The position numbers and the translations under genes were made by a program. Below are positions 8,360 through 24,841 of a stretch of DNA of 64,000 nt, piece after piece. A model generated the notes under the pieces. The model did no database searches and was not told the DNA's origin. It saw nothing but the letters and a program-made list of their open reading frames with translations. How positions within the stretch are numbered: position 1 is the first letter of the stretch; each line of letters opens with the position of its first letter. Source of the stretch: an uncultured archaeon (GTDB lineage: Archaea > Aenigmatarchaeota > Aenigmatarchaeia > GW2011-AR5); the NCBI GenBank assembly GCA_964373695.1, contig CAYJVT010000001.1, positions 37,773 to 101,772 on the forward strand, read 5' to 3'.

Positions 8360-10191
8360 TCAATAACAACGAGCTGCTCGTTCACGGATTTTTTTGTCTC
8401 TTCAAGATTCGGATAAAGGCTGAACGCCTCGAACTTGTCTCTCCAGTATTCCGACTCGCTTAGATATTTCTCTACAAGCCGTATTCTTTCAGCCGCCCCG
8501 CCGACGTTGCCGGAATTAAACTCGCATGCGGCAAGCGTCATGTTTGCAAGCGCGTGGCCTGAAGTGACCACATCGCATATGTATCTCATCTGCCTGACGA
8601 TCTTAGACAGCCTATCACGATCTTTTATGTTCATGACCCTCTCGTAATTTATTTTATAATTCATGTAGAACCATATATCCATCAGCTGCTCCGAAGTCGG
8701 CTCCGCATCCAGGTTGCCGCTTTCGAATGGGTTGGCGAATTTTTTCACTTCCTTTTTGTGCTCGACGGTGTTCTGCTTCCCGTGGGGGCCTATCATGAAC
8801 CGCGTTTCATTCGTCTGGAGCTTGTCCTCTATCAGGCCCTCTTTCACCATCGCCTTGTATATCGGGGTAGAGGGCAGAGGCTGCAGTATGTTCAGTGCAT
8901 ACCAGTCCAAGTCCAGCTCAAGTGCAAGGTTCATGGTATCGAGCATCATTCTCAGCGTTTCATGGGGAAAGCCCAGCATGAGGAAGCCGCGGGAGAATAT
9001 CTTGGGATATTTCCTTAGAAGGGCCGCCGCATTCCTGAAATTGTCCACTGTCCCGGGCTTTTTTATGTCCAGAAGTATTTTCGGGTTTCCGGATTCGATG
9101 CCGAAGAAAAGCCCTATGCATCCCGATTCGGCCGTAGCCTCTATTATAGCAGGCTTGCACGCAGCAGCTATGACGCCGTTGGAGGCGTCCCATGTTATGC
9201 CGAGGTTGCGCCTTTTTATCTCCTGGAAAAGCTCTATTGTCCTCTTCTCGTTGAAGAAAAGGTCGTCGTCAAGCCACATTATATGCTTCACGCCGTATTT
9301 CCTGGCAAGGAGTTCTATCTCGTCCGCAACGCTTTCAATGCTTCTCTGCCTGACACCCATGCCATTGAAGCTGCGGACGCTGCAGAACGTGCACATCGCC
9401 CGGCATCCCTTGTTGGAAAGCACGGTCGCGACCCTGGTTCCTGGCTCAAGCAGCGCAGTGAAGGAGCCGATGGTGCCCACGGAAGAATAATTCGATATAT
9501 CGACAAGATCGTACGCCGGTATCCTGTTCAAATCATCCGTCTCCGGTGCCTTCCTTTCCTCCAGCGAATAATATTTGCCGCCTGCAATCACTGACACCTG
9601 ATAAATCTCATCCCCATGACCGTTCGCGGCCTCAAGAAGCTTCTGGAAAGCCACCTCGCTCTCGTAGGAGCATGCTATGAGCCTTTCGTAGTCTATTGAG
9701 CGCAGAACCCTTTCTGTGTCGTTAGACACGTGAACGCCTCCGACAATTATCGGCAGTTCCTTTCCGGCGACCTCGCTGCATACTCGCACAAAGCTGTCGT
9801 GCGTCATCGTGAACATGCATGTTATGCCGACCGCGTCAGGCCTGAATTCGTCAATCTTTCTGGCCAGAAGGCCTTTCCATTCGGCATCGTAATCCATCTT
9901 GCCCCCTGATTCCACGGCCCTCTTTATCACATGATAATTTAGGTCGACAATCTCGGGCTCGTGGCCATTCTCTCGCAAAACGTCGGCGAGAAGCAGCGGG
10001 CCATAAGGCGGATATGTATAACACCTTTTCTGCAATGCGGCCTCAAAGTTGAATTCCTCTGATGCGATGTCCGGCGGGTTGACGAGAAGCACCTTCCTAG
10101 CTTTTTTTCCGCCGAATATCTCGCGTATTCTCGCCAATATTGCCGCCTTCGCCTCCTGTCCCGGCTCGTGCTCTTTCAGAAGCTGCTCCAT
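8356..10191 (-). CDS. B12-binding radical SAM protein
   Basis: VLLVNPP...GGVHVS, SNKGCRAMCTFC, WLDDDL, FGIESG, LQPLPST. Its stop overlaps the convergent gene's stop in a TTAA. Confidence 0.92.
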   Translation of the reverse strand: MEQLLKEHEPGQEAKAAILARIREIFGGKKARKVLLVNPPDIASEEFNFEAALQKRCYTYPPYGPLLLADVLRENGHEPEIVDLNYHVIKRAVESGGKMDYDAEWKGLLARKIDEFRPDAVGITCMFTMTHDSFVRVCSEVAGKELPIIVGGVHVSNDTERVLRSIDYERLIACSYESEVAFQKLLEAANGHGDEIYQVSVIAGGKYYSLEERKAPETDDLNRIPAYDLVDISNYSSVGTIGSFTALLEPGTRVATVLSNKGCRAMCTFCSVRSFNGMGVRQRSIESVADEIELLARKYGVKHIMWLDDDLFFNEKRTIELFQEIKRRNLGITWDASNGVIAAACKPAIIEATAESGCIGLFFGIESGNPKILLDIKKPGTVDNFRNAAALLRKYPKIFSRGFLMLGFPHETLRMMLDTMNLALELDLDWYALNILQPLPSTPIYKAMVKEGLIEDKLQTNETRFMIGPHGKQNTVEHKKEVKKFANPFESGNLDAEPTSEQLMDIWFYMNYKINYERVMNIKDRDRLSKIVRQMRYICDVVTSGHALANMTLAACEFNSGNVGGAAERIRLVEKYLSESEYWRDKFEAFSLYPNLEETKKSVNEQLVVID

Positions 10192-11734: not shown

Positions 11735-12379
11735 ATGCCAGGTCTCATAATACAGCACCGCGTCAACAATATAGGCGCGCTCCGCAAGATACAACCAAAA
11801 TACGGCGTGGAGATAGACATCCGTCACGACAACAGGACAGGCAGCCTGTATCTGAACCATGACCCGGGAGAGGGCGACGACTTCTTTGAATATTTGGATG
11901 TTTTCGCGGAGCAGGGCAACCGCTTCGCTATATTCAACCCGAAAGAAATCGGCATTGAGCAGCGAATAATAGAAGCTGCCAAGGAACGCGGCATTGAGGA
12001 CTACTTCCTTCTCGACCTTGAATTCCCTTTCATATATCGTGCCGCTCAAGGCGGCGTGCCAAACATCGGCAAACGCATCGCCATCCGCTATTCAGAGGCC
12101 GAGCCTTTGGAGCAGGCAATGCTGCTCAAAGGCAGGTTTGACTGGGTATTCGTCGACGTCAACACTCGCCTGCCGCTCGACAAAAAAATATGCAATATGC
12201 TTGATGAAGCAGGCTTCAGGACCTGCATCGTATGCCCGTCGCGCTGGAAGCGTCCTGATGACATACCAAAGTTCATAGAGCAGATGAAGAAAGAAGGCAT
12301 AAAGATAGACGCTGTCATGACCAAGGACCCGTATGCAGAACAGTGGGAGAACAGCGGCGTTGTGAGGCCGTTCAAATGA
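11735..12379 (+). CDS. GDPD/PI-PLC-like phosphodiesterase-fold protein of the type found in polysaccharide loci
   Basis: IIQHRVNN...YGVEIDIR...LYLNHDP, N.KE, and FLLD motifs. Confidence 0.7.
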   Translation: MPGLIIQHRVNNIGALRKIQPKYGVEIDIRHDNRTGSLYLNHDPGEGDDFFEYLDVFAEQGNRFAIFNPKEIGIEQRIIEAAKERGIEDYFLLDLEFPFIYRAAQGGVPNIGKRIAIRYSEAEPLEQAMLLKGRFDWVFVDVNTRLPLDKKICNMLDEAGFRTCIVCPSRWKRPDDIPKFIEQMKKEGIKIDAVMTKDPYAEQWENSGVVRPFK

Positions 12380-13203
12380 CAAACCTCGTCCCGATGGCAG
12401 GGCTCGGGAAGCGCTTCTCTGACGAAGGCTACAGCTTGCCGAAGCCGCTGATACCAGTGTCAGGCAGGCCGATGATAGTGCAGGCAATAAGGAGCATGCC
12501 TTCTGACAAGGATTGGGTTTTCGTGTGCAGGAAGGAGCACATAGAAAAATATCATGTTGACAAAATCCTCATGAAGGAAGCGCCTTCCTGTAAAATCATT
12601 GCCGTTGACAAAACGACAGAAGGACAGGCATCCACATGCCTCCTCGCAAAGGGCTTCATAGACATGGAAAAGCCGCTTTTCATAGGCGCGTGCGACAACG
12701 GCATGGTATTCGACAGGGAGAAATGGAAAAAGCTTACTTCTGACAAGAGTATAGACGCAATAATTCTGACATTCACGAGGCAGCCCAACATGACAAGAAA
12801 TCCCAAGGCGTGGGGCTGGGTTGTTAATGACAATGGCGTTGTGCGGGATATATCTGTAAAAGTGCCTGTGAGCGACGACCCTTTCAACGACCACGCCGTC
12901 GTGGGCTCGTTCTGGTTCCGCACCGGCCAGGTATTCGTTGACGCGGCGGAGCAGATGATAGCCTCCAACAAGCGCACGAACAACGAGTTCTATGTCGATT
13001 CTGTGCCCATGGAAATCATCGCGAACGGCGGCAAGGTCATGATATTCGACCTGAAGCAGTACATAGGATGGGGAACCCCCATAGACCTCCGCGAGTACGA
13101 GCATTGGGAATCTGCCATATTGAAGGGCGCCTCAGAGCAAGACAGGAAATCCGATTTTTACGGCTTCTGGAAGGATTATTTCACGAAAAACATGATAAGA
13201 TGA
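12376..13203 (+). CDS. Nucleotidyltransferase-fold (GT-A/NTP_transferase) protein, type B
   Basis: MTNLVPMAGLGKRF..GY.LPKPLI, TEGQASTC, CDNG, NNEFYV, WGTP. The start is placed at the ATGA overlap with the upstream stop. Confidence 0.85.
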   Translation: MTNLVPMAGLGKRFSDEGYSLPKPLIPVSGRPMIVQAIRSMPSDKDWVFVCRKEHIEKYHVDKILMKEAPSCKIIAVDKTTEGQASTCLLAKGFIDMEKPLFIGACDNGMVFDREKWKKLTSDKSIDAIILTFTRQPNMTRNPKAWGWVVNDNGVVRDISVKVPVSDDPFNDHAVVGSFWFRTGQVFVDAAEQMIASNKRTNNEFYVDSVPMEIIANGGKVMIFDLKQYIGWGTPIDLREYEHWESAILKGASEQDRKSDFYGFWKDYFTKNMIR

Positions 13204-13246: not shown

Positions 13247-15727
13247 ATGGGGCTCGTGGAAAGGCTTGAAGCGGGCGACAGGATAGGAAGCCAGTTTTCA
13301 AGGTTCGTCGTCATAGGCGGCATAAGCACGCTGATAAACTACGCCGTTTTCCTCGTCCTGTATGCCATGCTTTCCGTAAACTACCTTGTCGCGTCAGCCG
13401 CCGGCTACGTGGTCGGCGCCGTCTTTGGATATTACTTCAACGCCCGCCTGACCTTCAGGAGCAGGCCCGGCCTCAGCGTGATGCCCTATTTTGCCGTATA
13501 CCTGTTCTCGCTGGTGGCGGGTCTTGGGGTGCTGAGGTTCTTCTCTGTGTCGGCCGGCATAGAGCCGCTGTTTTCAAACGTGATTTCAATAGCGTTCACG
13601 GCGGCGGCCAACTTCCTGGGGTGCAGGTATCTGGTTTTCGGCGGCCTGAAAATACCTTCGGTATTCAAAAGTAAGGCATTCCTGTCTGTGCTTGCCTTAA
13701 AGATAATTTTCGCCTTTCTTTTAGCCTCGGACTTCATGACGCAGCTCTTCATACCGTTTGTGCAATATTTCGTCGGGAACCCGCTTTCAAATCCCTACCA
13801 GCATTTCATCGACATAGGCAACGTGAAGGCGTTCCCGTACCCCCCATTCATGCTCCTGGTAGTCTCCGTCCCGTACATGCTGTTTGGCGTCTTCAGCGGG
13901 CCGTTTTTTGAGCTTTTCGCGATGCGTATACCGCTTCTGGCGGCCGACATAGCGATATTCTACGTTCTGTACAGGATTCTGGACGGGAAGAAGGTGATGC
14001 TCCTCTACTGGGCGTCCCCTGTGGTGTTCTACATAACGTATATCCACGGCCAGCTCGACATAATACCCGTGGCGCTCCTGTTCCTGTCAGCCTATTTCCT
14101 CAAAGGCCGTCAGTACGTGAAATCCGCGGCCCTCCTGGGCGCCGGCATCGCGGCGAAGTCGTTTGTCTTCGTGGCGCTTCCTCTTTACCTCGCTTACCTG
14201 ATAAAGAAAAAAATCCGCTGGATAGGGACGGCTGCATTTTTCGCCATTTCCCTGGGGATGTATGCCGCCTTCCTCGTGCCCTTTGTCTTCAGCGAAGGCT
14301 TCGTCCGCATGGTATTCGGCGCCGAGGAGCAGTTCAGGCTGTTCAATCTTTCGGTGGATTTAACCCTTGGCCTGGTCTATTACATAGTTCCTGCAGCCTA
14401 TGCATACATACTTTTCAAGGCATTCTCCTTCAAGAGGATGACGAGTGACATGCTGTTCGTCCTTCTGGGCATGACCCTTACATTTCTTGTCACGTTCATA
14501 CATCCTGAGCGCGGCTGGTATATGTGGGCTATCCCGTTCGTAATCTATTTTCTGGTGAAGGAGAGGATAAGCGTATGGATTTACTCGGCTTTCAATGCCG
14601 CGTACCTCCTTTACTTCCTTTTCGTTCCGGACTCGGACGTGTTCCGCGTATTCCAGGTGGTGTGGCCATCTATATCATCACTGATGACGCCGTACTACAT
14701 GCTGGTTTCCGCAGGAATCCCATCGGACATACTGGTCAACGTCCTGTTCACCGCCATGACGTCGGCGCTGCTTTACCTTACGTACATAATCTACAGGAGG
14801 GGCGTCAGAAGCGGTCTGCTGTTCCAGGAGAAGAACGGAATACCGATAATAGGGATAGGAGGCGACTCAGGCTCCGGCAAGACCACCCTTGCGAAGACTC
14901 TTTCGGAACTGTTTGGCAGGGAGCGCGTGACGACTGTATACGGGGATGACATACACAGATGGGAGAGAAAAGACAGTAACTGGGAAAAGTATACGCATCT
15001 CAACCCTGCCGGAAACAGAATTTACCTGAATTACAGGCAGATAAGGAAGCTGAAGGGCGGCGCCACGATAAGCAGGCCGCATTACGACCACGGCACCGGG
15101 AAATTCACTTCCCCGTCCAGTATAAAGCCGAGAGACATAATAATCTCCGAAGGCCTCCATACGTTTTTCATCAGCGAATCCAATAGCATCTACGAAATAA
15201 AGGCTTTCCTTGACCCCGATCCATCATTAAGAGTTCTGTGGAAGCTCAGGCGTGATATGAAGCTCAGGGGATACTCAAAGAAGGAGGTAATGAAGAAACT
15301 TGGGCAAAGAAGGCGCGACTCAGACAGGTTCATCGCGCCGCAGAAGATGTATGCCGACATGGTGATTTCTTACATGCCTGAAGGGAAGGTGAGCTTTTCC
15401 GACATTGAAAATGACGTTCCTGTAAGGCTGCAGATCGACGTGAAGAACGACATACCGCTCGAAGGTTTTCTGGAGGCTGCGTCCGGAATAAAATCTCTCG
15501 GCATAGAGATGGAATACCATGACCACAGATTCCAGCGCATGGTGTTCAGGGGCGGCGCTTCGGTGGAAGATATTGGAAATCTGCTGAACTCCCTTGACAT
15601 AGATTACGAAACGTACGAAATAGACAGGAACGGAATCAGGGGCGGGTTCGACGGCATTTTACAGGTTATTTTCCTTTATTGCCTCAACGAAAGGCTCAAG
15701 GTGCTGGGTGGTGGCGGCGATGAATGA
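13247..15727 (+). CDS. Fusion protein: GtrA flippase-like domain + GT-C (GT87/PIG-M-like) membrane domain + phosphoribulokinase/uridine kinase-like domain
   Basis: Residues ~10-130 are GtrA-like (QFSRFVVIGGISTLINY...NARLTF...NFLGCRYLVF). Residues ~140-520 are polytopic with FPYPP, RIPLLAAD, HGQLDIIP, AAKSF and PERGWYMW. Residues ~530-826 carry IIGIGGDSGSGKTT, GDDIHRWER, YDHGTGKF, EGLH, WKLRRDMKLRGY and PQKMYAD, which match archaeal/cyanobacterial-type PRK motifs. Confidence 0.85.
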   Translation: MGLVERLEAGDRIGSQFSRFVVIGGISTLINYAVFLVLYAMLSVNYLVASAAGYVVGAVFGYYFNARLTFRSRPGLSVMPYFAVYLFSLVAGLGVLRFFSVSAGIEPLFSNVISIAFTAAANFLGCRYLVFGGLKIPSVFKSKAFLSVLALKIIFAFLLASDFMTQLFIPFVQYFVGNPLSNPYQHFIDIGNVKAFPYPPFMLLVVSVPYMLFGVFSGPFFELFAMRIPLLAADIAIFYVLYRILDGKKVMLLYWASPVVFYITYIHGQLDIIPVALLFLSAYFLKGRQYVKSAALLGAGIAAKSFVFVALPLYLAYLIKKKIRWIGTAAFFAISLGMYAAFLVPFVFSEGFVRMVFGAEEQFRLFNLSVDLTLGLVYYIVPAAYAYILFKAFSFKRMTSDMLFVLLGMTLTFLVTFIHPERGWYMWAIPFVIYFLVKERISVWIYSAFNAAYLLYFLFVPDSDVFRVFQVVWPSISSLMTPYYMLVSAGIPSDILVNVLFTAMTSALLYLTYIIYRRGVRSGLLFQEKNGIPIIGIGGDSGSGKTTLAKTLSELFGRERVTTVYGDDIHRWERKDSNWEKYTHLNPAGNRIYLNYRQIRKLKGGATISRPHYDHGTGKFTSPSSIKPRDIIISEGLHTFFISESNSIYEIKAFLDPDPSLRVLWKLRRDMKLRGYSKKEVMKKLGQRRRDSDRFIAPQKMYADMVISYMPEGKVSFSDIENDVPVRLQIDVKNDIPLEGFLEAASGIKSLGIEMEYHDHRFQRMVFRGGASVEDIGNLLNSLDIDYETYEIDRNGIRGGFDGILQVIFLYCLNERLKVLGGGGDE

Positions 15728-16652
15728 ACTTGAATGGCTCGTAAAGACCTCAGGGAATATCGGAAGCGACCCAAGGCTTGTCCAGGGCACCGGGGGCAAC
15801 CTGTCAGTGAAGCTCGGCGGAAAGATGATGATAAAATCCTCCGGGGTCAGAATGGATGCTGTCAGTAACGGCAGCGGATGGAGCGTCGTCGACCACGGGA
15901 AGATAGCCGGCATATATTCAAGAAGATTAACAGAGGAAGACGCCGGGAGGGTTTTGGAAGAAGCCATTATCGAAGGCTCAAAGCCCTCGATAGAGACGGG
16001 GTTTCACTCGTTTCTTGAAAAATACGTCATTCACGTCCACCCTGTCCATCTTAATGTCATTCTGTGCTGTGAAAAAAGCGCTGAAATTATGTCCGAAATT
16101 TTCTCGCCGGACGAATTCACCTGGGTTCCTTATACCAAGGTAGGCCACAGACTGGCAGCAGAGATAAAAGACCGCGGCCATGACAGAGGGATTATATTCC
16201 TGGAAAATCACGGTGTGATAATATCATCAGACAGCCCCAAGGACTGCACAGAAATTCTTTCGTCTGTCGAGGAGCGTGTAAGAAAATACCTAGAGTCAAA
16301 AATCCGGCCGTTCGAGCCGTTTTCATATACGATACCAAGGGAAGCGGAAGGCTGCTATGTCAGCACTTCCGAAGCGGTTCTGCGCGGCAGGTCGGGAATT
16401 TTCTCCGGCTTTCTTTTCCCTGACGCCGTCGTCTTCTCCTTGCCGGAAAAGATAAAAGCTGACGCCAAGGGCGTAACGTATTTAATGGATTATGCGAATG
16501 CTGTAAACGTTGATGGCGTGCTGGCGGCTCATGCATACATAAAGGAAAATGCCGCAAAGCTCGGCATGCTGAAATACCTCACGGAAATGGAAATCAGCGA
16601 CATAATAGGCATGGAATCTGAAAAATACAGGAGAAAGATGGTTGGATTATGA
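15720..16652 (+). CDS. Class II aldolase/adducin family protein (RhaD N-terminal-like)
   Basis: LVQGTGGNLSVK, IKSSG, PSIETGFH, VIHVHP and LENHG zinc/phosphate motifs. ATG at 15720 overlaps the upstream gene end. Confidence 0.85.
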   Translation: MNELEWLVKTSGNIGSDPRLVQGTGGNLSVKLGGKMMIKSSGVRMDAVSNGSGWSVVDHGKIAGIYSRRLTEEDAGRVLEEAIIEGSKPSIETGFHSFLEKYVIHVHPVHLNVILCCEKSAEIMSEIFSPDEFTWVPYTKVGHRLAAEIKDRGHDRGIIFLENHGVIISSDSPKDCTEILSSVEERVRKYLESKIRPFEPFSYTIPREAEGCYVSTSEAVLRGRSGIFSGFLFPDAVVFSLPEKIKADAKGVTYLMDYANAVNVDGVLAAHAYIKENAAKLGMLKYLTEMEISDIIGMESEKYRRKMVGL

Positions 16653-17518
16653 AAGTGATAATACCGGCGGCCGGGATTGGCCAGAGATTTCTGGATGCCG
16701 GATATAAAAAACCGAAGCCGCTGATACTCGCCGACGGCATCCCGTTTGCCAGGCATGTGGCAAATATGTTTTCCCCTAGCGATGAGTTTGTTTTCGTGTG
16801 CAATGAAGAGCACCTGAAAACGACGGAGATGCGCAGCGTCGTCGAAAGCGTCGGCCGCATAGTTTCCATAAAGCCCCACTCCCTCGGCCCTGTGCACAGC
16901 GTTCTTGCCGCCTCTGACCTCATAGAGGAAGATGAGCCTGTGATGGTCTGCTACTGCGATTTCTACGAATGGTGGGATTATCAGCATTTCAAAGATACAG
17001 TGAAAGAAAGCGGATGCGACGCGGCCGTCACCGCGTACACCGGATTCCACCCCCACCTTCTGGGCACCGGCCTATACGCCTCGATGAAAGTGGAAAACGG
17101 CTGGATGCTGGAATGCAGGGAGAAGCACAGCTTTACGGAGGACAAGATGGACAGCTTCCACCAGACTGGAAAGTTTTACTTCTCCACCGGAAGCATTTTG
17201 AAAAGGTTCTTCAGTGATATAAAGGAAAGGAACCTCGTAGTGAACGGTGAATTCTACATCAGCGTCGTGACGCAGGCGATGGTGGAGGCGGGCCTGAAGG
17301 TGATGGTATATCCGGTGGAGCATTTCCTCCAGTGGGGCACGCCGCAGGAGCTGGAGGAATACACGCAGTGGTCAGGGTACTTCTCGGGCAAGAACGGGTT
17401 GCCGGAGGCTTTCGACGAAAGGAGCTTAGGATACTGGGAATCGTTCTTCAGGAAATGCCCGTGGCATCCGTACGGAAAAGGTGGGGCTCATGATAAAGGG
17501 GATTATGCTAGACCTTGA
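16649..17518 (+). CDS. Nucleotidyltransferase-fold protein, type A
   Basis: MKVIIPAAGIGQRF..AGYKKPKPLI, GPVHSV, YCDF, GFHPHLL, NGEFYIS, QWGTPQELEEY. Confidence 0.85.
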   Translation: MKVIIPAAGIGQRFLDAGYKKPKPLILADGIPFARHVANMFSPSDEFVFVCNEEHLKTTEMRSVVESVGRIVSIKPHSLGPVHSVLAASDLIEEDEPVMVCYCDFYEWWDYQHFKDTVKESGCDAAVTAYTGFHPHLLGTGLYASMKVENGWMLECREKHSFTEDKMDSFHQTGKFYFSTGSILKRFFSDIKERNLVVNGEFYISVVTQAMVEAGLKVMVYPVEHFLQWGTPQELEEYTQWSGYFSGKNGLPEAFDERSLGYWESFFRKCPWHPYGKGGAHDKGDYARP

Positions 17519-18149
17519 CAACACCCTCTATGACTATGAAACCTGCAATGAATACGCAAAATACGAGCTTTTCCGCAAAATCGAGGGCGATATGGGCGTT
17601 GCCGGCGCCGAAAAGGCGTTCGACGAAGCAAGAAAATCCGTGAAGAAGTCTCTTGAGAAGACGGCGGCCGGCCATTCGCGCCTTCTTTACATAGGGAAGG
17701 CGCTAGAGGCCCTTGGCATAAGCGCACTCCATTCGGTGCGCTATCATGATTTTTTCTGGGAAAAATATTTCGAGAAAATGGAGCTTTTCGAGAGCGTCGC
17801 GGATTTTCTCGAGCATGCAAAAAATTCCGGGATGAAAATCTGCATAGTCACGGACCTCACCGCCGAAATCCAGATGAAGAAAATAATCCACCTCGGGATA
17901 GAAGGCTATGTAGATTTTATCGTGTCGTCTGAGGAGGTGGGTGAAGATAAGCCGTCATCGAAGGTGTTCTGCATGGCCCTAGAGAAGATGGGTATGAAAA
18001 AGGAGGATGTTGTTATGGTGGGGGACGACGAGGAAAAGGACATAAAAGGCGCGGAAAATGCAGGCATCCGTGCGGTGAAGGCGGACCCTTCCATCTTTGC
18101 ATCCGGGAGGCTCGTGGAAATCCTGCAGGCGGCGGATAGGTTTAAGTAA
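17490..18149 (+). CDS. HAD-family phosphatase
   Basis: MLDLDNTLY (motif I), IVTD, EDKP, MVGDDEEKDI. An AGGTGG RBS precedes the ATG at 17490. Confidence 0.9.
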   Translation: MIKGIMLDLDNTLYDYETCNEYAKYELFRKIEGDMGVAGAEKAFDEARKSVKKSLEKTAAGHSRLLYIGKALEALGISALHSVRYHDFFWEKYFEKMELFESVADFLEHAKNSGMKICIVTDLTAEIQMKKIIHLGIEGYVDFIVSSEEVGEDKPSSKVFCMALEKMGMKKEDVVMVGDDEEKDIKGAENAGIRAVKADPSIFASGRLVEILQAADRFK

Positions 18150-18171
18150 ATTTTTTGCGTATCTTTGGAAT

Positions 18172-18801
18172 ATGATACTGCTCCCGAAGCTCAGGCTCGG
18201 CGTAACCGCATTTTCGGGCCCAGAATCCGTGGAAGCGATAAGTAAAATGGGGGTCAGGCATGTGAACATCCCTTCATCTCTCCTGAATGCTGACAACGCC
18301 GGTGCCTACATGGAGAACGCCAAAAAATTCAATATCACAATCGAGGCCGTGTGCACCGGCGGCTCGGATAATTTCGCGGAGCTGGCGGCAGCCGTGGGAG
18401 CGAAGGCACTGTGCATAGCCTTGGATGACATAAGCCTTATCGGAGCCGTTTCGGACAGCGCCAAGAGCACAGGACTTAATTATCTGATATGGGAACCTGC
18501 AGGCATCGGTATGGAAGACTGTAAAAGGACTCTGACAGACATCAGCAAGACGTCTGCCATTCCTGTGAAGCTCGCACTCTCTCTCGAGTCGGATAACATC
18601 TACGAGATGTCGAGAATTATAGGAAAGGACGCCATGATAATCATAAGGAGGAAGGAAGACATTGCAATACTCGGGAAGGTTATCGACAGCCTGAGAACGG
18701 GTGGCTCTAGGGAAAACATGATAATGCTGGATATGCCTTCGGCAGCCATTGACAGCCTCGAGACCTCGGTGGACTACTGTAGGAGTTTCGTCAGAGAGTG
18801 A
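18172..18801 (+). CDS. Degenerate, shortened TIM-barrel paralog of the downstream EryC-like gene
   Basis: LNYLIWEP, IPVKLAL, GKDAMII and SVDYCRSFVRE align with CLTFEH, IPILLCL, GKDAPIL and SVNFWKPYADE of 18798..19706. Probable start is the ATG at 18172. Confidence 0.55.
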   Translation: MILLPKLRLGVTAFSGPESVEAISKMGVRHVNIPSSLLNADNAGAYMENAKKFNITIEAVCTGGSDNFAELAAAVGAKALCIALDDISLIGAVSDSAKSTGLNYLIWEPAGIGMEDCKRTLTDISKTSAIPVKLALSLESDNIYEMSRIIGKDAMIIIRRKEDIAILGKVIDSLRTGGSRENMIMLDMPSAAIDSLETSVDYCRSFVRE

Positions 18802-19706
18802 AATTAATGACAAAAATCAAATTCGGCACTGACCTTGACTTTGCGGTTAACAGGTATCCGGAGCCTGAGGAATGGGCACGCGTCCTGTCGGAAGAGCTTG
18901 GCGTCAGGCATGCCCAGTTCCGCTCCGACCTCATCCAGCCGCATTTTTCCGATGAAATAATAAATGAGCAGGCTGAAAGGGTAAGAGCCGCATGCAAGGA
19001 ATACGGAATCAGGCTGGAGCATGCGTTCACCAGCCAGAGATGGGCCTACTGCGGCCATCCTGACGCAAAAATAAGGGAATACTGGCACTGGTGGCTGAAG
19101 CGCTATTCTGATATTGCTGCAAAAGTCGGTGCGCGGAGCGCAGGAAGCCGCCTCGGCATATACAGCATGAAAGACCTTTCAACAAGGAAGGAGTTCATTC
19201 TAAAGGAGATAATGAGTTTCTGGAAGAAATGGGCATCTTATTCGAAGAAGGCCGGCCTTGACTGCCTGACATTCGAGCATCTCTCAATCCCGAGGGAGCT
19301 TGCCGACACGATAGAAGGCGCAAGACAGGTGCTTGACATGGCAAAGGGCTCCGAAATTCCAATCCTGTTGTGCCTTGACACCGACCAAGGAAATGTGATG
19401 TCCGGAAACCCGAAGGATGGCGACCCGTACGAATGGCTCAGGGAATTCGGCAAAGACGCGCCTATCCTGCACCTCAAACAGAGAATAAGAGGCAACGCCT
19501 CGTCTGGCAAGCCGTTCACGCCCGAAAACAACAAGGAAGGAATGATAATACCGGAGAAAGTCGTGGAAGCACTTGAAGAAAGCGGAGCGAAGGAAGTCAA
19601 CCTTTACCTTGAGCCTTCATTCCGCGAACGCCTGCCGCAGGACAACAACGTAATCAGTGACCTCAGGCAGTCGGTCAACTTCTGGAAGCCTTACGCCGAC
19701 GAATAG
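18798..19706 (+). CDS. EryC-like sugar-phosphate 3-epimerase (xylose-isomerase/AP-endonuclease-2 TIM barrel)
   Basis: VNRYPEP, GHPD..IR.YW..W, FEHLSIPRE, DTDQG.V.S.NP.D.DPY.W, ILHLKQ, PFT...N.EG.I.PE, LE.SFRER.P.D, SVNFW. This follows the pattern of Brucella EryC (D-erythrulose-1-P 3-epimerase) as recalled. Confidence 0.75.
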   Translation: MKLMTKIKFGTDLDFAVNRYPEPEEWARVLSEELGVRHAQFRSDLIQPHFSDEIINEQAERVRAACKEYGIRLEHAFTSQRWAYCGHPDAKIREYWHWWLKRYSDIAAKVGARSAGSRLGIYSMKDLSTRKEFILKEIMSFWKKWASYSKKAGLDCLTFEHLSIPRELADTIEGARQVLDMAKGSEIPILLCLDTDQGNVMSGNPKDGDPYEWLREFGKDAPILHLKQRIRGNASSGKPFTPENNKEGMIIPEKVVEALEESGAKEVNLYLEPSFRERLPQDNNVISDLRQSVNFWKPYADE

Positions 19707-19734: not shown

Positions 19735-20307
19735 TCACTCCAGATTCGCGTGGTATTTCCACAGCTCTTCGCCGGGAATGCTTTTCCTGCCTTGTATCAT
19801 CAAAGATACTATGTCCCCGAATACGTGGAGTGACTGGTCAAAGAGCGTGCTCATGGGCTGTATAGACTTCACGCCTTCCTGCATATTGGTCTTCGTCGGG
19901 CATTTCAGGTGGACGCACATGTCTGCAAGAGATTTTATTGTGGATTGCTCCGAAGATGTAATGAGAGCCAGCTTGGCGTTGTGCTTCTTCGCTATCTGCG
20001 ATATTGTGACAGGAACCTTGCTCTCGCCTGAGCCGCTGGCGACTATGAGGAGATCGCGCGGCGTTATGGCCTTTTCTGCGACGGAGCCGACGACGTGGCA
20101 GTCTATGCCCAAATGGCTTAAGCGCTTTGCCATGCACTGCAAGGAAAGGAATACGCGGCCGACTGCTATGAAGAATACTTTCTCGGCTCTCAGTATTTCT
20201 TCCACTAGCGCATCCACTTCGTTTGTATCGACCATTTTCGTTACGCTGTATATCTCGTCCAGGACAGACACTGTGAACTTGCTGTATTCGTGCTCCATAA
20301 ACATCAC
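19735..20307 (-). CDS. SIS-domain sugar-phosphate isomerase, 6-phospho-3-hexuloisomerase (HxlB/PHI)-like
   Basis: VGRVFL...AKRL.HLG, ASGSGES, QPMSTLFDQS and a C-terminal HANLE. Confidence 0.85.
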   Translation of the reverse strand: MMFMEHEYSKFTVSVLDEIYSVTKMVDTNEVDALVEEILRAEKVFFIAVGRVFLSLQCMAKRLSHLGIDCHVVGSVAEKAITPRDLLIVASGSGESKVPVTISQIAKKHNAKLALITSSEQSTIKSLADMCVHLKCPTKTNMQEGVKSIQPMSTLFDQSLHVFGDIVSLMIQGRKSIPGEELWKYHANLE

Positions 20308-21465: not shown

Positions 21466-23073
21466 ATGAAGGTTATCATACCGATGGCCGGGAATAACGA
21501 GGACTTCCGCCGGGAAGGGATGGATGAAGTAAAGCACATGATGAATATAGACGGCAAGAGCATGATAGAGCACGTATGCGGCATGTTCCCCCAGAACAGC
21601 AGCTTCATATTTCTCTGCAGGAAGGCGCATCTGGATAATTCAGGCCTTATGGAACATCTCCAGAAAATAGTCAAGAATTCCACGATAATAGTAGTTGAAA
21701 ACGACACGAGAGGGCCGGTGGAAACTGTGTTGCTCGCTGACGGGGCTGTGAGAGATGATGAGGAAGTAATAATAGCCCATTCCGACGCCATATCGGACTG
21801 GGATTTCAGCGTGTTCCTGAAGAAAATAAAGGACAGAAAAGCCGATGGCGCCCTTTCAACGTTCATAGGCTTTCATCCGACACACCTCAACGGGGTGCGT
21901 TATGCCTCCATATCAACAGACGACAACGACTATGTAGTCAGTATAAAGGAAAAGGAGCTCATAACAAAGGGCTACATTGAAAACTACACTTCCGCCGGTG
22001 TGTATTATTTTTCAAGGTGGGATGTGTTCAAGAAATACGCTGAAAGGATGATAGAAAACGTCGAACACGAGATGTTTTACATAAGCCTGGTATACAACGA
22101 GATGTTGAAAGACGGCCTGAAGGTCGTGCCTTTCGAGGCTGAGGGCCTAATTTACTGGGGTGAACCGCAGAATCTGAAGGAGTATGTGTTCTGGTCGGAA
22201 TATTTTGCGTCCCTGACCAAGCAGGGCAAGGAAAGGGGAATGTACGATATGGTAAATCTCATACCTTCCGCAGGCCGCGGAAAGAGATTTGCAGACGCTG
22301 GGTACAAGATTCCCAAGCCGTTCATAGATGTTCTTGGCGAGCATATGATAGTGAAATGTGCAAAATCGCTTCCAAAAACGGCCAGATACGTCTTCGTCTG
22401 CCTAAGGCAGCATGTAGAAAATTTCGGGCTCGACGAAATTCTGAAAAAAAACTTCCCGGAATGCGATATTGTCATAGTAAATGACTATACAGACGGCATG
22501 GCACGCTCGTGTCTCATGGCCAAGCATCTTCTGGACAAGGACAAGCCTGTTTTCGTCTCGTCATGCGACTACAGCTTCGTCTACAACGACGAAAATCTCA
22601 GGAGGCTGATTGAGGACGAGGACCCTGATGCAGTAGTGTGGACATTCAGGGGGTATCCGGATGCCAGAATAGCACCAATGGCATACGCCTACATGGTAGT
22701 GGAGAACGGCCGTGTCAAAAGAATCTCGGAAAAGGTTCCGATAAGCGACGAGCCGCACAAGGATCCAATAGTGCAGGGCATTTTCTACTTCAAGACAGCC
22801 AAGCTTCTGATAGATTGCATAAACGAGATGATAGAAAAAAACATAACCGTCAACGGCGAGTTCTACGTCGGAACCGCCATAAACCATCTCATAGAGAAGG
22901 GTATGAAAGTCATGCCATTTGAGCTGGATAAATACATATGCTGGGGAACGCCGCACGACCTGCTTGTGTTCCAGTTCTGGGAAAACTACTTCATAAATAA
23001 TCCGAATCACCCATATAAAAGGATTGTACCTAAATCGGAATTAAGCCAACTGAAATTGGCTAAGATGTGGTAA
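21466..23073 (+). CDS. Tandem double nucleotidyltransferase-fold protein (type A + type B domains)
   Basis: Domain 1 (MKVIIPMAG...GFHPTHL...WGEPQNLKEY) resembles 16649..17518. Domain 2, from ~22249 (VNLIPSAGRGKRF...PKP...NGEFYV...WGTP), resembles 12376..13203. Confidence 0.85.
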   Translation: MKVIIPMAGNNEDFRREGMDEVKHMMNIDGKSMIEHVCGMFPQNSSFIFLCRKAHLDNSGLMEHLQKIVKNSTIIVVENDTRGPVETVLLADGAVRDDEEVIIAHSDAISDWDFSVFLKKIKDRKADGALSTFIGFHPTHLNGVRYASISTDDNDYVVSIKEKELITKGYIENYTSAGVYYFSRWDVFKKYAERMIENVEHEMFYISLVYNEMLKDGLKVVPFEAEGLIYWGEPQNLKEYVFWSEYFASLTKQGKERGMYDMVNLIPSAGRGKRFADAGYKIPKPFIDVLGEHMIVKCAKSLPKTARYVFVCLRQHVENFGLDEILKKNFPECDIVIVNDYTDGMARSCLMAKHLLDKDKPVFVSSCDYSFVYNDENLRRLIEDEDPDAVVWTFRGYPDARIAPMAYAYMVVENGRVKRISEKVPISDEPHKDPIVQGIFYFKTAKLLIDCINEMIEKNITVNGEFYVGTAINHLIEKGMKVMPFELDKYICWGTPHDLLVFQFWENYFINNPNHPYKRIVPKSELSQLKLAKMW

Positions 23074-24110
23074 AAATGAGCTCGATGGATGCTGTCGTTG
23101 TTGAGGGGATAGGGAATATAGAATGCAAGAAAATACCTTTTCCTGAATGCGGCGACAACGACGTCATCATACTTACCGAAAGGTCCGGGATATGCAGCAC
23201 CGACGTCATAAGGTCGATGAAAACCGGATTCTACCGCTACCCAATCGTGCCAGGCCATGAATTCTGCGGGGTTGTGGTCAAGAAAGGGAAGAACGTCGCC
23301 GGCGTTGATATAGAGGATAACGTGGTCGTGTACCCCCTCATACCGTGCAAGAAATGCGTTCCGTGCATGGCAGGACACCACAACCTGTGCGACACGTACG
23401 ATTTTCTGGGCTCGAGATCCAACGGAGGGCACGCCGAATACGTCAAGTGTCCCTCAGAAAACCTGCTGAAAATACCGAAAAACATAAGCTTCGATGAAGC
23501 CTGTATGGCGGAGCCGTCGTCTGTCGGTCTTCATGCCAGCCGAGTTTCCGGAAAGGCTGTGAATGTGGTCGTAATGGGCCTTGGCCCAATAGGCTTCTTT
23601 ACGGCCCAATGGGCAAAGATTCTGGGAGCGAACCATATTTTTGGTGTGGACAGACACGACCAGAGATTCAAAATCTCCAGAAAGGTCGGCATCCACGAAT
23701 TCATAGACTCCAGGGACCAGGAAATTACAAAGGCAATAAAGGAGCTTACGGACGGTCAGGGAGCCGACGTGATATTTGAGTGCTCGGGCTCCATAGACCT
23801 TCAGAGGGAAGCTATCTCATCGGCCGCGAAGCGTGGCAGGATTATTCTCCTTGGAAACCCGACTAACGACCTTGTTTTGAACAAGGAAACTTATTCGATG
23901 GTGCTCAGAAGGGAACTGAGTATAATAGGCTCATGGAGCTCGCTTATCTCGACCGACGAATGGAGCCAGTCCCTGGAGCACATGTCGAGCAAAAAGATAA
24001 ACGCAATGCCGGTGATAACCCATAATTTTCACGTGAGCGAGGCCAAGAACGTCATAGAGGACATGCATCACAAGAGATTCGAGTTCTCCAAAGTGGTCTT
24101 CCGGATGTAG
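23067..24110 (+). CDS. Zn-dependent polyol(-phosphate) dehydrogenase (GatD/sorbitol DH-like)
   Basis: GICSTD, PGHEF, CKKCVPCMAGHHNLC, GGHAEY, GLGPIG. Confidence 0.9.
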   Translation: MVKMSSMDAVVVEGIGNIECKKIPFPECGDNDVIILTERSGICSTDVIRSMKTGFYRYPIVPGHEFCGVVVKKGKNVAGVDIEDNVVVYPLIPCKKCVPCMAGHHNLCDTYDFLGSRSNGGHAEYVKCPSENLLKIPKNISFDEACMAEPSSVGLHASRVSGKAVNVVVMGLGPIGFFTAQWAKILGANHIFGVDRHDQRFKISRKVGIHEFIDSRDQEITKAIKELTDGQGADVIFECSGSIDLQREAISSAAKRGRIILLGNPTNDLVLNKETYSMVLRRELSIIGSWSSLISTDEWSQSLEHMSSKKINAMPVITHNFHVSEAKNVIEDMHHKRFEFSKVVFRM

Positions 24111-24148: not shown

Positions 24149-24841
24149 ATGACAAAGCTTTCCGTTATACTCCCGTGCTACAACGAGGGGGAGAACATAC
24201 CGCTCATTCTTGAGAGATATTCGCAGGTTGCGAAGAGGGTGCCTATGGAGCTCGTCTTGGTCGATAACGGCTCTACGGACGGGACTGAAGGCATCCTCAG
24301 AAAGGAGCTCCCGAAATACAAGTTCGCAAGGTCTGTGAAAGTCGGAAAGAACATAGGGTACGGCTTCGGCATCCTTTCTGGCCTCAGAACCGCCAAGAGC
24401 GGGTATCTGGCGTTCTCCCATGCCGACATGCAGTGCGACCCCAGAGACATAGAGAAGGGGTGGAAAATTCTCATATCATCCGTCTCCCCGGAAAGGACGC
24501 TGGTAAAGGGCAACCGCGAGGGGAGGGCGAACTTCTTCACGTCATGCTTCCATGCGGCATCCTCTGCCGTCCTTATGAAGCATTTCGACGACGTCAACGG
24601 CCAGCCGAAGATATTCCATAAAGACCTTCTGGGAATGATGAAGAAGCCGCCGAACGGGTTTTCTCTGGACCTTTACGTTCAGTACACCGCCCTCAGGAAC
24701 GGATTTGCCGTCAGAAGCTTCCCGGTGAAATTCAAGAGAAGGCTTCATGGGAAGTCCAGCTGGGCGACCGGCATACGCTCAAGAGCGAAGACGATAGCCG
24801 GAATGTCCGCATATATTCTGAAGCTCAGGATGGGGCTTTAG
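24149..24841 (+). CDS. GT2 polyprenol-phosphate glycosyltransferase (DPM1-like)
   Basis: VILPCYNEGENI, VDNGSTDGT, NIGYGFGI, HADMQCDP, DVNGQPK, R.HGKS. Confidence 0.85.
   Translation: MTKLSVILPCYNEGENIPLILERYSQVAKRVPMELVLVDNGSTDGTEGILRKELPKYKFARSVKVGKNIGYGFGILSGLRTAKSGYLAFSHADMQCDPRDIEKGWKILISSVSPERTLVKGNREGRANFFTSCFHAASSAVLMKHFDDVNGQPKIFHKDLLGMMKKPPNGFSLDLYVQYTALRNGFAVRSFPVKFKRRLHGKSSWATGIRSRAKTIAGMSAYILKLRMGL

What the first reader, a model, noticed from the sequence alone, without database searches (positions are those of the whole stretch)
13247..15727. GtrA / GT-C / phosphoribulokinase-like triple fusion
One uninterrupted 826-aa ORF joins a GtrA-like flippase domain, a polytopic GT87/PIG-M-like transferase and a cytoplasmic P-loop kinase. 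The kinase carries motifs of archaeal/cyanobacterial PRK (GDSGSGKTT, DD.H..ER, Y.H..G.F, EGLH, WK.RRDM..R.Y, PQ...AD). PRK is normally a soluble Calvin/RHP-cycle enzyme. Here it is tethered to a glycan-export machine with no RuBisCO in view, which suggests PRK has been repurposed to activate a pentulose for glycosylation.
Basis: partly seen in the sequence, partly recalled or inferred. Interest (0 to 1): 0.8.

Follow-up and report, generated by a model that had tools for sequence, protein, structure and literature searches.

The report
Membrane glycosyltransferase fused to phosphoribulokinase
One archaeal gene joins a lipid-carrier membrane module, a membrane sugar transferase and a true phosphoribulokinase-type kinase, and it sits in an undescribed operon, found across bacteria and archaea, that probably turns ribulose 5-phosphate into an unusual surface sugar.

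Summary
Window 13247-15727 (+) is one 826-aa ORF with three confidently modelled domains: a GtrA/DPMS-type four-helix module, a GT-C transferase fold, and a complete two-subdomain phosphoribulokinase (PRK). The kinase is PRK-type, not uridine kinase. All PRK catalytic and Ru5P-phosphate residues are invariant across the family.

The fusion is not an assembly artefact. GT-C+kinase proteins occur in at least 552 species genomes and at least 1,501 protein clusters.

The fusion sits in a near-constant operon. Its partners are a HAD phosphatase nearest to RuBP 5-phosphatase, an aldolase-fold enzyme of the ketose-1-phosphate type, two distinct nucleotidyltransferases, a minimal GDPD-like phosphodiesterase, a small GT2 and GtrA.

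Best reading (about 0.55): a Gtr-like, lipid-carrier glycosylation system with its own precursor pathway, Ru5P to RuBP to Ru1P to an activated pentulose-derived unit. Only the first two steps rest on characterised homologues. The later steps and the sugar itself are inferred.

RuBisCO exists elsewhere in this genome, but 4 of 5 cultured bacterial carriers lack it. I found no paper on this system. Databases call these proteins 'uridine kinase'. This scan had already noted the same family in another genome.

The parts
13247..13651 (+). Fusion residues 1-135: GtrA/DPMS-type four-helix membrane module. It is the likely polyprenyl-phosphate binding platform or flippase candidate, and the likely docking site for the small GT2.
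   Evidence: Pfam PF04138, 67.4 bits. Superposes on the membrane domain of P. furiosus DPMS 5mlz residues 229-352: Z 17.8, rmsd 1.3 A, 120 residues. K/R pattern fits N-in/C-in.
13652..14836 (+). Fusion residues 136-530: GT-C fold polytopic transferase domain.
   Evidence: VIA Z 27.4 (9wno, GPI-MT-I), 26.1 (ALG3), 25.0 (ALG6), 19.4 (PimE, ArnT). Invariant residues include F196-P197-Y198, D234, H267, Q269, D271, P420, W424, W427. Most of these motifs lie in K/R-poor, outward-facing loops. Of the best 150 relatives, 118 are at least 640 aa, a length that fits the kinase fusion.
14837..15727 (+). Fusion residues 531-826: cytoplasmic PRK-type kinase with both PRK subdomains.
   Evidence: NCBIfam PRK07429 at 205 bits against udk at 80-88 bits. 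PDB PRKs at 1e-40 against Udk at 1e-15. Z 30.6 over 281 residues to 9qko and 27.1 to MhPRK 5b3f. Invariant P-loop, D567, H570, R574, Y613, H615, K666, R669, D670, R674. The linker before the kinase is K/R-rich.
11735..12379 (+). U190: minimal GDPD/PI-PLC-like phosphodiesterase, soluble, 214 aa. Conserved operon partner.
   Evidence: No Pfam or PDB sequence hit. AF2 pLDDT 96.5. The top 22 structural matches are all GDPD or phospholipase D-type enzymes, with Z up to 16.5. Near-invariant H8, R9, E26, D28, H42. Present in 72 of 83 loci. A canonical PF03009 GDPD takes its place in L017.
12343..13203 (+). NTP-B: nucleotidyltransferase, orthologous to the C-terminal half of the ~550-aa didomain form.
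   Evidence: Pfam NTP_transferase. 45-48% identity to the B halves and 25% to NTP-A. G20, G22, R24, K34 and D118 are conserved.
15708..16652 (+). ALD: class II aldolase/epimerase-fold metalloenzyme with a C-terminal extension.
   Evidence: Pfam Aldolase_II 2.6e-17. All 33 of 33 operon members hit the RhaD-type aldolase N-domain. Invariant GGNxS, S45-G46, S94, E96, H100, H109, H111, and H168 in at least 90%. Present in 69 of 83 loci and truly absent from some complete ones.
16649..17518 (+). NTP-A: second, distinct nucleotidyltransferase, orthologous to the N-terminal half of the didomain form.
   Evidence: Pfam NTP_transf_3. 45% identity to Maribacter didomain residues 1-250. G9, G11, R13, K23, D104, E158-K159 are conserved.
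17481..18149 (+). HAD phosphatase nearest to ribulose-1,5-bisphosphate 5-phosphatase.
   Evidence: NCBIfam NF053830 at 1.3e-53, 182 bits, below the 330-bit cut-off. All 33 of 33 operon HADs match this model, which has the best E-value of the families tallied. Invariant D11, D13, K157, D182, D187.
24149..24841 (+). Small GT2, ortholog of the operon GT2. Candidate polyprenyl-phosphate sugar synthase that lacks its own membrane domain.
   Evidence: 44-48% identity to the operon GT2 of L004 and L005. Weak hits to ArnC, DPMS and GtrB-like sll0501. Present in 73 of 83 loci.
21466..24110 (+). Second NTP-A/NTP-B didomain (21466-23073) plus a Zn-dependent polyol-phosphate-type dehydrogenase (23067-24110). 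Possible side branch of the same island.
   Evidence: 37% identity over the full length to the Maribacter didomain. The dehydrogenase is nearest to galactitol-1-phosphate 5-dehydrogenase at 217 bits, below cut-off.

Best explanation
The fusion is the membrane core of a self-contained, Gtr-like glycosylation system that makes its own sugar precursor. On the cytoplasmic face, the PRK domain phosphorylates ribulose 5-phosphate (or a close pentulose 5-phosphate) at C1. The HAD partner removes the 5-phosphate to give a ketose 1-phosphate such as Ru1P. The aldolase-fold enzyme, which is optional, most likely re-sets stereochemistry at C3/C4. Two different nucleotidyltransferases and the GDPD-like phosphodiesterase then convert this into a nucleotide-activated donor. 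The small GT2, docked on the GtrA/DPMS-type helices, loads the unit onto polyprenyl phosphate. After flipping, the GT-C domain transfers it to a surface glycan or glycoprotein. Shown here: domain identities, folds, conserved active-site residues, the conserved operon and its spread. Inferred: substrates, order of steps, the sugar and the acceptor. Fusing the first committed enzyme to the last would tie RuBP production to the presence of the transferase.
For: The kinase is PRK-type by score, structure, tree and residues, with Ru5P-binding positions as defined in the PRK structure papers. The operon is nearly constant over 83 loci from DPANN-type archaea to Firmicutes and Proteobacteria. All 33 of 33 HAD partners match RuBP 5-phosphatase, with the best E-value among the families tallied. 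The characterised member of that family is strict for RuBP and yields Ru1P (PMC9700705). All 33 of 33 aldolase-fold partners hit the ketose-1-phosphate (RhaD-type) aldolase models and keep metal, phosphate and Glu residues. Both nucleotidyltransferases keep catalytic motifs. U190 has a GDPD fold with a catalytic His/Arg/Glu/Asp set, and a canonical GDPD replaces it in L017. Other fusions link the parts: GTC-PRK-HAD, NTP-GT2 and GtrA-ALD. The GtrA module matches the DPMS membrane domain, and the GT-C domain matches Dol-P-Man/Glc-using enzymes. The kinase sits on the K/R-rich side. The operon travels as a cassette on an E. coli plasmid between IS26 copies.
Against: No enzyme activity was tested. 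The PRK score (205 bits) and the HAD score (182 bits) are both below NCBIfam's curated cut-offs (236 and 330). A ketose 1-phosphate carries no anomeric phosphate, so how a glycosyl donor arises is unexplained without extra, speculative chemistry. Two nucleotidyltransferases could instead form one hetero-oligomer. The GT-C fold also matches PIG-U, which is not a transferase. The one E. coli carrier whose O-antigen locus I read has O35-family wzx/wzy genes rather than belonging to the xylulose serogroups O95/O97. This genome has RuBisCO and an IF-2B-family protein, so RuBP has other uses here.
Confidence: 0.55

Rival explanations
1. Same system, different kinase substrate. The PRK-like domain phosphorylates another phosphorylated ketose (xylulose 5-P, a hexulose 6-P or sedoheptulose 7-P) or a lipid-linked sugar phosphate at the membrane surface, not Ru5P.
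For: Scores lie below the curated PRK cut-off. The fusion kinases form a grade beside the named PRKs rather than nesting inside them. CrPRK Arg67 is not kept (Ser in the window). Tethering to the membrane would suit a lipid-linked substrate.
Against: Every residue assigned to Ru5P binding and catalysis in PRKs is invariant. The HAD partner's nearest curated family acts on RuBP specifically.
Confidence: 0.2
2. In this archaeon the kinase domain mainly supplies RuBP to the genome's RuBisCO, as in an RHP- or CBB-like route. The fusion to glycan machinery would then be incidental.
For: The genome has a RuBisCO large subunit, and this fusion is its only PF00485 member. The nearest stand-alone relatives are methanogen PRKs of the RHP pathway (PMC5241800).
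Against: RuBisCO lies on another contig. An IF-2B-family gene, possibly ribose-1,5-bisphosphate isomerase, could supply RuBP without PRK. Four of five cultured bacterial carriers have no RuBisCO homologue. The kinase is always fused to GT-C and sits in an operon with glycan enzymes.
Confidence: 0.07
3. It is a uridine/cytidine kinase, as databases annotate it, providing nucleotides for the neighbouring nucleotidyltransferases.
For: PGAP and JGI name family members 'uridine kinase'. PF00485 covers both enzymes.
Against: udk models score 80-88 bits against cut-offs of 180-220. A branch with 100% SH-aLRT support separates Udk from the fusion kinases plus PRKs. Udk lacks the DDxHxxxR and YxH motifs and the C-terminal PRK subdomain, all of which the fusion has.
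Confidence: 0.03
4. The fusion is an assembly or frameshift artefact that joins separate genes.
For: None beyond its unusual look. In many bacteria GtrA is a separate gene.
Against: Triple fusions of 822-843 aa at 35-76% identity occur on independent contigs. GT-C+kinase fusions occur in at least 552 species genomes and at least 1,501 clusters. The AF2 model is confident across the domain junctions.
Confidence: 0.01

Closest known systems
Gtr-type three-component glycosylation (GtrA / GtrB-like GT2 / GtrC-like GT-C), including ArnC-ArnT, CsbB/GtcA/YfhO and the mycobacterial polyprenyl-phosphate sugar systems
   Same: All three roles are present: a small GT2 of the polyprenyl-phosphate sugar synthase type, a GtrA module, and a GT-C fold enzyme with conserved residues in outward-facing loops. 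It is often a mobile cassette outside the main glycan locus.
   Different: Known systems draw on housekeeping UDP-sugars. This one carries a dedicated precursor pathway of five or six enzymes, and its GT-C is covalently fused to a kinase. I found no described system with that feature. GT87 membership is not shown by sequence for this protein.
Class II (archaeal/cyanobacterial/plant-type) phosphoribulokinase, e.g. M. hungatei PRK 5b3f and the 'cyanobacteria-specific PRK' 9qko/9qkp
   Same: Two-subdomain fold (Z 27-31 over about 280 residues), P-loop, DDxHxxxR, YxH and RDxxxR motifs. About 43% identity to methanogen PRKs over the N-terminal subdomain.
   Different: It is membrane-tethered, scores below the curated family cut-off, lacks regulatory Cys pairs, and is not tied to RuBisCO across the family.
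Haloarchaeal non-carboxylating pentose bisphosphate pathway (RuBP 5-phosphatase + Ru1P aldolase; PMC9700705)
   Same: A HAD nearest to RuBP 5-phosphatase sits next to a class II aldolase-fold enzyme, downstream of a RuBP-forming enzyme.
   Different: There, RuBP comes from nucleosides via ribose-1,5-bisphosphate isomerase, and the pathway is catabolic, ending in DHAP and glycolaldehyde. Here, RuBP would come from a PRK. The aldolase-fold enzyme is RhaD-like, longer and optional. The neighbours are biosynthetic: nucleotidyltransferases, GT2 and GT-C.
GDP-/ADP-heptose pathway (kinase, HAD phosphatase GmhB, nucleotidyltransferase)
   Same: The same logic: phosphorylate a sugar phosphate to a bisphosphate, remove the distal phosphate with a HAD enzyme, then nucleotidylate. 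This is my own comparison from general knowledge.
   Different: The kinase family differs (GHMP/PfkB against PRK). The heptose 1-phosphate is anomeric, whereas a ketose 1-phosphate is not. That difference may explain the extra GDPD-like enzyme and the second nucleotidyltransferase.

Membership tests
Phosphoribulokinase (PF00485; NCBIfam NF005655, class II type) | Walker A P-loop GxxGxGK[ST] | tested here: met
   G536, G539, S541, G544 and K545 are invariant in 22 family members.
Phosphoribulokinase (PF00485; NCBIfam NF005655, class II type) | Catalytic and Ru5P-binding residues (CrPRK Arg64, Tyr103, His105, Arg159, Asp160, Arg164; RsPRK Asp42/His45) | tested here: met
   D567, H570, R574, Y613, H615, R669, D670 and R674 are invariant and align to PRKs, not Udk. 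CrPRK Arg67, which is not strictly conserved in PRKs, is Ser here.
Phosphoribulokinase (PF00485; NCBIfam NF005655, class II type) | Two-subdomain PRK fold including the C-terminal sheet domain | tested here: met
   Z 30.6, rmsd 2.4 A over 281 of 302 residues to 9qko. Z 27.1 to 5b3f. Udk covers only 195 residues.
Phosphoribulokinase (PF00485; NCBIfam NF005655, class II type) | Score at or above the curated family cut-off | tested here: not met
   NF005655 scores 205.4 bits against a cut-off of 236. The Pfam PF00485 cut-off is met (132.5 against 22), but that family also holds Udk.
Phosphoribulokinase (PF00485; NCBIfam NF005655, class II type) | ATP-dependent conversion of Ru5P to RuBP | not testable with these tools
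   Needs an enzyme assay.
Uridine kinase (TIGR00235 / NF004018) | Curated score cut-off, nucleoside-binding motifs, single-domain size of about 210 aa | tested here: not met
   80-88 bits against cut-offs of 180-220. A branch with 100% SH-aLRT support separates it from Udk. The Udk DxYY/YxF motifs are replaced by PRK motifs, and an extra C-terminal subdomain is present.
GtrA (PF04138) | Pfam gathering score and a four-helix membrane bundle | tested here: met
   67.4 bits against 26.1. Four helices at 13-130. Z 17.8, rmsd 1.3 A to the DPMS membrane domain.
GtrA (PF04138) | Flippase activity for polyprenyl-phosphate sugars | not testable with these tools
   To my knowledge this role is only putative, even for characterised GtrA proteins.
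GT-C glycosyltransferases (GT87 / GT50 / ALG3 / ALG6-like) | GT-C membrane fold | tested here: met
   Z 27.4, 26.1 and 25.0 over 331-354 aligned residues.
GT-C glycosyltransferases (GT87 / GT50 / ALG3 / ALG6-like) | Sequence membership of GT87 (PF09594) | tested here: inconclusive
   No Pfam hit in this protein at E up to 0.1. Some homologues carry PF09594, PF26314, PF03155 or PF05208 in the precomputed lists, marked weak or faint where a mark was shown.
GT-C glycosyltransferases (GT87 / GT50 / ALG3 / ALG6-like) | Conserved acidic or catalytic residues on the extracytoplasmic face | tested here: inconclusive
   H267, Q269 and D271 lie in a K/R-free loop, and D234 lies inside a helix. No residue-level superposition on a catalytic Asp was possible.
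Ribulose-1,5-bisphosphate 5-phosphatase (NF053830), for the HAD partner | Curated equivalog cut-off | tested here: not met
   182 bits against 330. It is still the best-scoring family for the window's HAD. All 33 operon HADs match it, with the best E-value of the families tallied. HAD catalytic motifs are intact.
GDPD / PI-PLC-like phosphodiesterases, for U190 | TIM-barrel fold with the His/Arg...Glu/Asp...His catalytic set | tested here: met
   Z 16.5, 190 residues aligned, rmsd 2.7 A to 2pz0. The top 22 rows are all of this superfamily. H8, R9, E26, D28 and H42 are at least 90% conserved. There is no Pfam PF03009 hit, so sequence-level membership is not shown.

The most novel reading that the evidence does not exclude
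The operon encodes a so far unknown route to a nucleotide-activated ketopentofuranose (ribulo- or xylulofuranose). PRK and a RuBP 5-phosphatase make ribulose 1-phosphate. One nucleotidyltransferase activates it. The GDPD-like enzyme uses the neighbouring anomeric hydroxyl to form a 1,2-cyclic phosphate and shifts the phosphate to C2. The second nucleotidyltransferase then makes the true glycosyl donor for the GT2 / GtrA / GT-C relay. The optional aldolase-fold enzyme would switch ribulose to xylulose stereochemistry. This could explain where xylulofuranose branches come from in O antigens such as E. coli O95/O97 and Yersinia enterocolitica O:10, whose precursor genes are reported as unidentified (PMC7685785, PMC11380512). 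It would also make RuBP an intermediate of glycan synthesis.
Probability: 0.2. Interest if true: 0.85.

Novelty: new variant of a known kind. Interest (0 to 1): 0.7.

Why it matters
If the reading is right, the enzyme considered unique to CO2-fixing cycles has a second, widespread life as the entry point of a surface-sugar pathway. RuBP would then be a biosynthetic intermediate in heterotrophs that have no RuBisCO. The family has at least 1,501 protein clusters, including Erwinia amylovora, gut Lachnospiraceae, marine Flavobacteriia, and small-genome (CPR and DPANN-type) lineages. It is uniformly mis-annotated as 'uridine kinase' or 'phosphoribulokinase', which can mislead metabolic reconstructions into calling Calvin-cycle potential. 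The operon is compact (7-8 genes), occurs in cultured bacteria and on an E. coli plasmid, and could therefore be tested at the bench. It may also solve the open question of how ketopentofuranose residues in bacterial glycans are activated.

Tried and rejected
1. I looked for a link to xylulofuranose serogroups. Only 2 of 5,426 complete E. coli genomes carry the operon, both on plasmids of about 33 kb. The O-antigen locus of carrier S1-CAM-01-A has O35-family wzx/wzy genes, so it is not O95/O97. This gives no support and no refutation, because I could not look specifically for O95/O97 or Yersinia O:5,27/O:10 genomes.

2. A phage origin like classical gtr operons found nothing: no match in 50,697 phage records.

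3. Literature searches for the fusion or operon returned nothing relevant. No paper was found for the nearest solved structures, 9qko, 9qkp and 9qkn.

4. Sequence searches of U190 against Pfam and PDB were empty. Only the fold search identified it.

5. PDB sequence searches for the two nucleotidyltransferases gave only marginal N-terminal hits, so the nucleotide and sugar specificity stay unknown.

6. A simple helix count could not settle the full GT-C topology around residues 200-320. I used family-wide K/R density instead.

7. Taking a whole E. coli assembly through a plasmid locus handle fails, because the handle gives only that record.

8. The neighbouring first-reader note called 18798-19706 'EryC-like' and 19778-20395 'HxlB-like SIS'. 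I could confirm only a xylose-isomerase-like TIM barrel for the first, and nothing for the second.
Full report
**Observation.** Window 13247..15727 (+) is a single ATG-to-stop ORF of 826 aa. Pfam recognises GtrA_DPMS_TM at residues 19-131 and PRK (PF00485) at 534-715. An AlphaFold model built on 22 homologues is confident throughout, with mean pLDDT 88 and pTM 0.79. An all-against-representatives structure search resolves three domains:
- Residues 12-133 superpose on the four-helix membrane domain of Pyrococcus dolichyl-phosphate mannose synthase (5mlz: Z 17.8, rmsd 1.3 A, 120 residues).
- Residues 136-534 have the GT-C fold: GPI mannosyltransferase I at Z 27.4, ALG3 at 26.1, ALG6 at 25.0, PimE and ArnT at 19.4.
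- Residues 527-822 are a complete PRK: 9qko at Z 30.6 over 281 residues, and M. hungatei PRK 5b3f at 27.1.

**Is the kinase PRK or uridine kinase?** Five lines of evidence point to PRK.
- NCBIfam's PRK subfamily model scores 205 bits (cut-off 236), while the udk models score 80-88 bits (cut-offs 180-220).
- Solved PRKs match at 1e-40, and uridine kinases at 1e-15.
- Uridine kinases cover only the first 195 residues or so of the domain, whereas PRKs also cover the C-terminal subdomain.
- In a tree rooted on E. coli Udk, a branch with 100% SH-aLRT support separates Udk from fusion kinases plus PRKs. The fusion kinases form a grade beside the named archaeal and bacterial PRKs.
- The residues that the PRK structure papers assign to catalysis and to the Ru5P phosphate are CrPRK Arg64, Tyr103, His105, Arg159, Asp160 and Arg164. 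They correspond to R574, Y613, H615, R669, D670 and R674, which are invariant in the family, as are D567 and H570. They are shared with PRKs, including E. coli PrkB, and absent from Udk.

The 'would refute' condition of the finding, that the kinase groups with uridine kinase, is therefore not met.

**Not an artefact; a large family.**
- Triple fusions of 822-843 aa at 35-76% identity occur on independent contigs.
- GT-C+kinase fusions of about 700 aa fill the rest of the hit list.
- A scan of one genome per species found at least 552 genomes with a relative. They span Micrarchaeia, Woesearchaeota, CPR, Bacteroidota, Acidobacteriota, Omnitrophota, Firmicutes, Melainabacteria and Proteobacteria.
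- A search with the Erwinia ortholog found at least 1,501 clusters at E<=1e-50. Every named member is called 'uridine kinase' or 'phosphoribulokinase'.
- Searching the GT-C part alone against 1.84 billion representatives gave 977 relatives. Of the best 150, 118 are at least 640 aa, a length that fits the kinase fusion. This GT-C subfamily is therefore mostly, perhaps always, kinase-fused.

**The context decides the reading.** I labelled ORFs in 83 related loci by BLASTP. The fusion sits in a near-constant operon.

| Partner | Loci (of 83) | Window coordinates |
|---|---|---|
| HAD phosphatase | 66 | 17481-18149 |
| Class II aldolase-fold protein (ALD) | 69 | 15708-16652 |
| Two nucleotidyltransferase domains, as two genes or one ~550-aa protein | 77 | NTP-B 12343-13203, NTP-A 16649-17518 |
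| GT2 of about 240 aa | 73 | 24149-24841 |
| Unannotated ~195-aa protein (U190) | 72 | 11735-12379 |
| GtrA | fused in 16, separate in 26 | part of the fusion |

The window coordinates come from orthology mapping. Other gene fusions tie the parts together: GTC-PRK-HAD in L070, NTP-GT2 in L011, L024 and L033, and GtrA-ALD in L046. In E. coli the eight genes lie on a 33-kb plasmid between IS26 copies. They are also on Azospirillum and Hirschia plasmids. They are in no phage record.

**What the partners are.**
- **HAD.** The best NCBIfam family for the window's copy is the haloarchaeal ribulose-1,5-bisphosphate 5-phosphatase (1.3e-53, below cut-off). All 33 of 33 operon HADs scanned match that model, which has the best E-value of the families tallied. 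Their catalytic Asp/Lys motifs are intact. The characterised enzyme is strict for RuBP and yields cyclised ribulose 1-phosphate (PMC9700705).
- **ALD.** All 33 of 33 members hit the N-terminal aldolase of rhamnulose-1-phosphate aldolase/dehydrogenases. They keep the phosphate loop GGNxS, the Ser-x-Glu, and the three metal histidines. ALD is really absent from some complete loci (L017, L068, L076, L034). It therefore looks like a tailoring step rather than a core step.
- **NTP-A and NTP-B.** They share 25% identity with each other, but each is 45-48% identical to its counterpart from archaea to Flavobacteriia. Both keep the GxGxR...K and Asp signatures.
- **U190.** It has no Pfam or PDB sequence match. 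It folds with pLDDT 96.5 into a small TIM barrel whose 22 best structural matches are all glycerophosphodiester phosphodiesterases or related phospholipases D, with Z up to 16.5. The His-Arg / Glu-x-Asp / His set is conserved. NCBI's pipeline names the E. coli ortholog a PI-PLC/GDPD family protein. In L017, which lacks U190, a canonical PF03009 GDPD sits in the operon. The phosphodiesterase step therefore seems to be required.
- **GT2.** It resembles ArnC, DPMS and GtrB-type polyprenyl-phosphate glycosyltransferases only weakly, and it lacks a membrane domain of its own.

**Topology.** K/R density, averaged over 22 family members, alternates along the loops. The GtrA-GT-C linker has 0.19 K/R per residue, and the segment before the kinase has 0.22, so both are on the K/R-rich (cytoplasmic) side. 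The loops carrying most of the invariant GT-C motifs are K/R-poor: EL1 162-199, HGQLD 267-271 and P420/W424/W427. This places the kinase in the cytoplasm and the GT-C motifs outside, as the reading needs. The exact helix count between residues 200 and 320 remains unclear.

**Most likely mechanism.** The order of steps is inferred.
1. In the cytoplasm, the PRK domain makes a pentulose 1,5-bisphosphate from Ru5P.
2. The HAD partner removes the 5-phosphate.
3. ALD, where present, re-sets stereochemistry by retro-aldol/aldol chemistry.
4. The two nucleotidyltransferases and the phosphodiesterase produce an activated donor.
5. The GT2, docked on the GtrA/DPMS-type helices, loads polyprenyl phosphate.
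6. The GT-C domain transfers the unit outside the membrane.

Only steps 1 and 2 rest on characterised homologues. A ketose 1-phosphate is not anomeric, which makes donor formation hard to explain. The most economical idea that uses all conserved genes is a phosphate shift from C1 to the anomeric C2, through a cyclic phosphodiester made by the GDPD-like enzyme, with one nucleotidylation before it and one after. I rate this at about 0.2.

**RuBisCO.**
- The window's genome is 1.02 Mb and 91% complete. It is archaeal by PTH2 and by matches to the archaeal SSU rRNA model, which alone would not tell the domain.
- It has a RuBisCO large subunit on another contig and an IF-2B-family gene. RuBP therefore has another possible source and sink here, and some cross-talk cannot be excluded.
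- Four of five cultured bacterial carriers have no RuBisCO homologue: Virgibacillus necropolis, Halobacillus halophilus, Acetobacter lovaniensis and Erwinia mallotivora. The family's role is therefore not carbon fixation.

[quoted passage not shown] Y. enterocolitica O:10 has L-Xulf side branches (PMC11380512). This makes a pentulofuranose an attractive product. However, the one E. coli carrier I could type has O35-family wzx/wzy genes, so the link is untested.

**Prior knowledge.** I found no paper describing the fusion or the operon. Earlier notes of this scan had flagged the same stretch, the wider cassette in this window, and the same family in another genome. My results agree with them. 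They add the PRK-against-Udk tests, the identity of U190, the RuBP-phosphatase relation of all HAD partners, the A/B split of the nucleotidyltransferases, and the optional status of ALD.

**Verdict.** This is a real, widespread and so far uncharacterised variant of lipid-carrier glycosylation with a PRK-driven precursor pathway. The biochemistry of its middle steps and its product remain open.

Noticed in passing
window 21466-24110 (+): A second copy of the NTP-A/NTP-B pair is fused into one 535-aa protein. A Zn-dependent dehydrogenase follows directly; its nearest family is galactitol-1-phosphate 5-dehydrogenase (217 bits, below cut-off). Then come the operon GT2 (24149-24841), a GT2 paralog (24873-25583) and an NAD-dependent sugar dehydratase/epimerase-family protein (25590-26525). 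This may be a parallel branch making a nucleotide-activated polyol phosphate.
   Followed up: partly
window 6896-8359 (+) and 8356-10191 (-): Two B12-binding radical SAM enzymes lie beside the glycan island. For the 611-aa enzyme (8356-10191), the best family is the PhpK-type P-methyltransferases, far below cut-off. A similar gene lies next to the fusion in the archaeal locus L004. They may methylate a glycan.
   Followed up: no
window 2686-4374 (+), 5070-6803 (-); L005:10101-12155; L088:13224-14984: Polytopic membrane proteins of 520-690 aa (6-11 hydrophobic segments) with no Pfam match accompany the operon in several lineages, including on the E. coli plasmid. They may be further transferases or polymerases.
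   Followed up: partly
L096 (own genome, contig 12: 16799-22150): The archaeal SSU rRNA model matches in three separate pieces spread over about 5 kb. This suggests large insertions or introns in the 16S rRNA gene of this small-genome archaeon.
   Followed up: no
L088 (E. coli plasmid NZ_CP145712.1, 6022-14984): The complete 8-gene operon lies between IS26 copies on a 33-kb plasmid of a human stool isolate whose chromosome has O35-family wzx/wzy genes. A second E. coli strain, from a bullfrog, carries the fusion gene on a 32.6-kb record that the search also counts as a plasmid.
   Followed up: partly
L017:11797-12825: In a Flavobacteriales genome the operon lacks both U190 and the aldolase-fold gene. 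It has a canonical 343-aa GDPD (PF03009, 1.9e-25) in that position, an apparent replacement of the minimal phosphodiesterase.
   Followed up: yes
window 18097-19706 (+): A 234-aa ORF with no family hit and a 302-aa xylose-isomerase-like TIM-barrel protein follow the HAD gene. They are not found in the 83 related loci, so they are specific to this lineage.
   Followed up: partly
PDB 9qko / 9qkp / 9qkn: The closest solved structures are newly released 'cyanobacteria-specific PRK' entries, one deposited as 'uridine kinase'. No paper on them was found in the library.
   Followed up: partly
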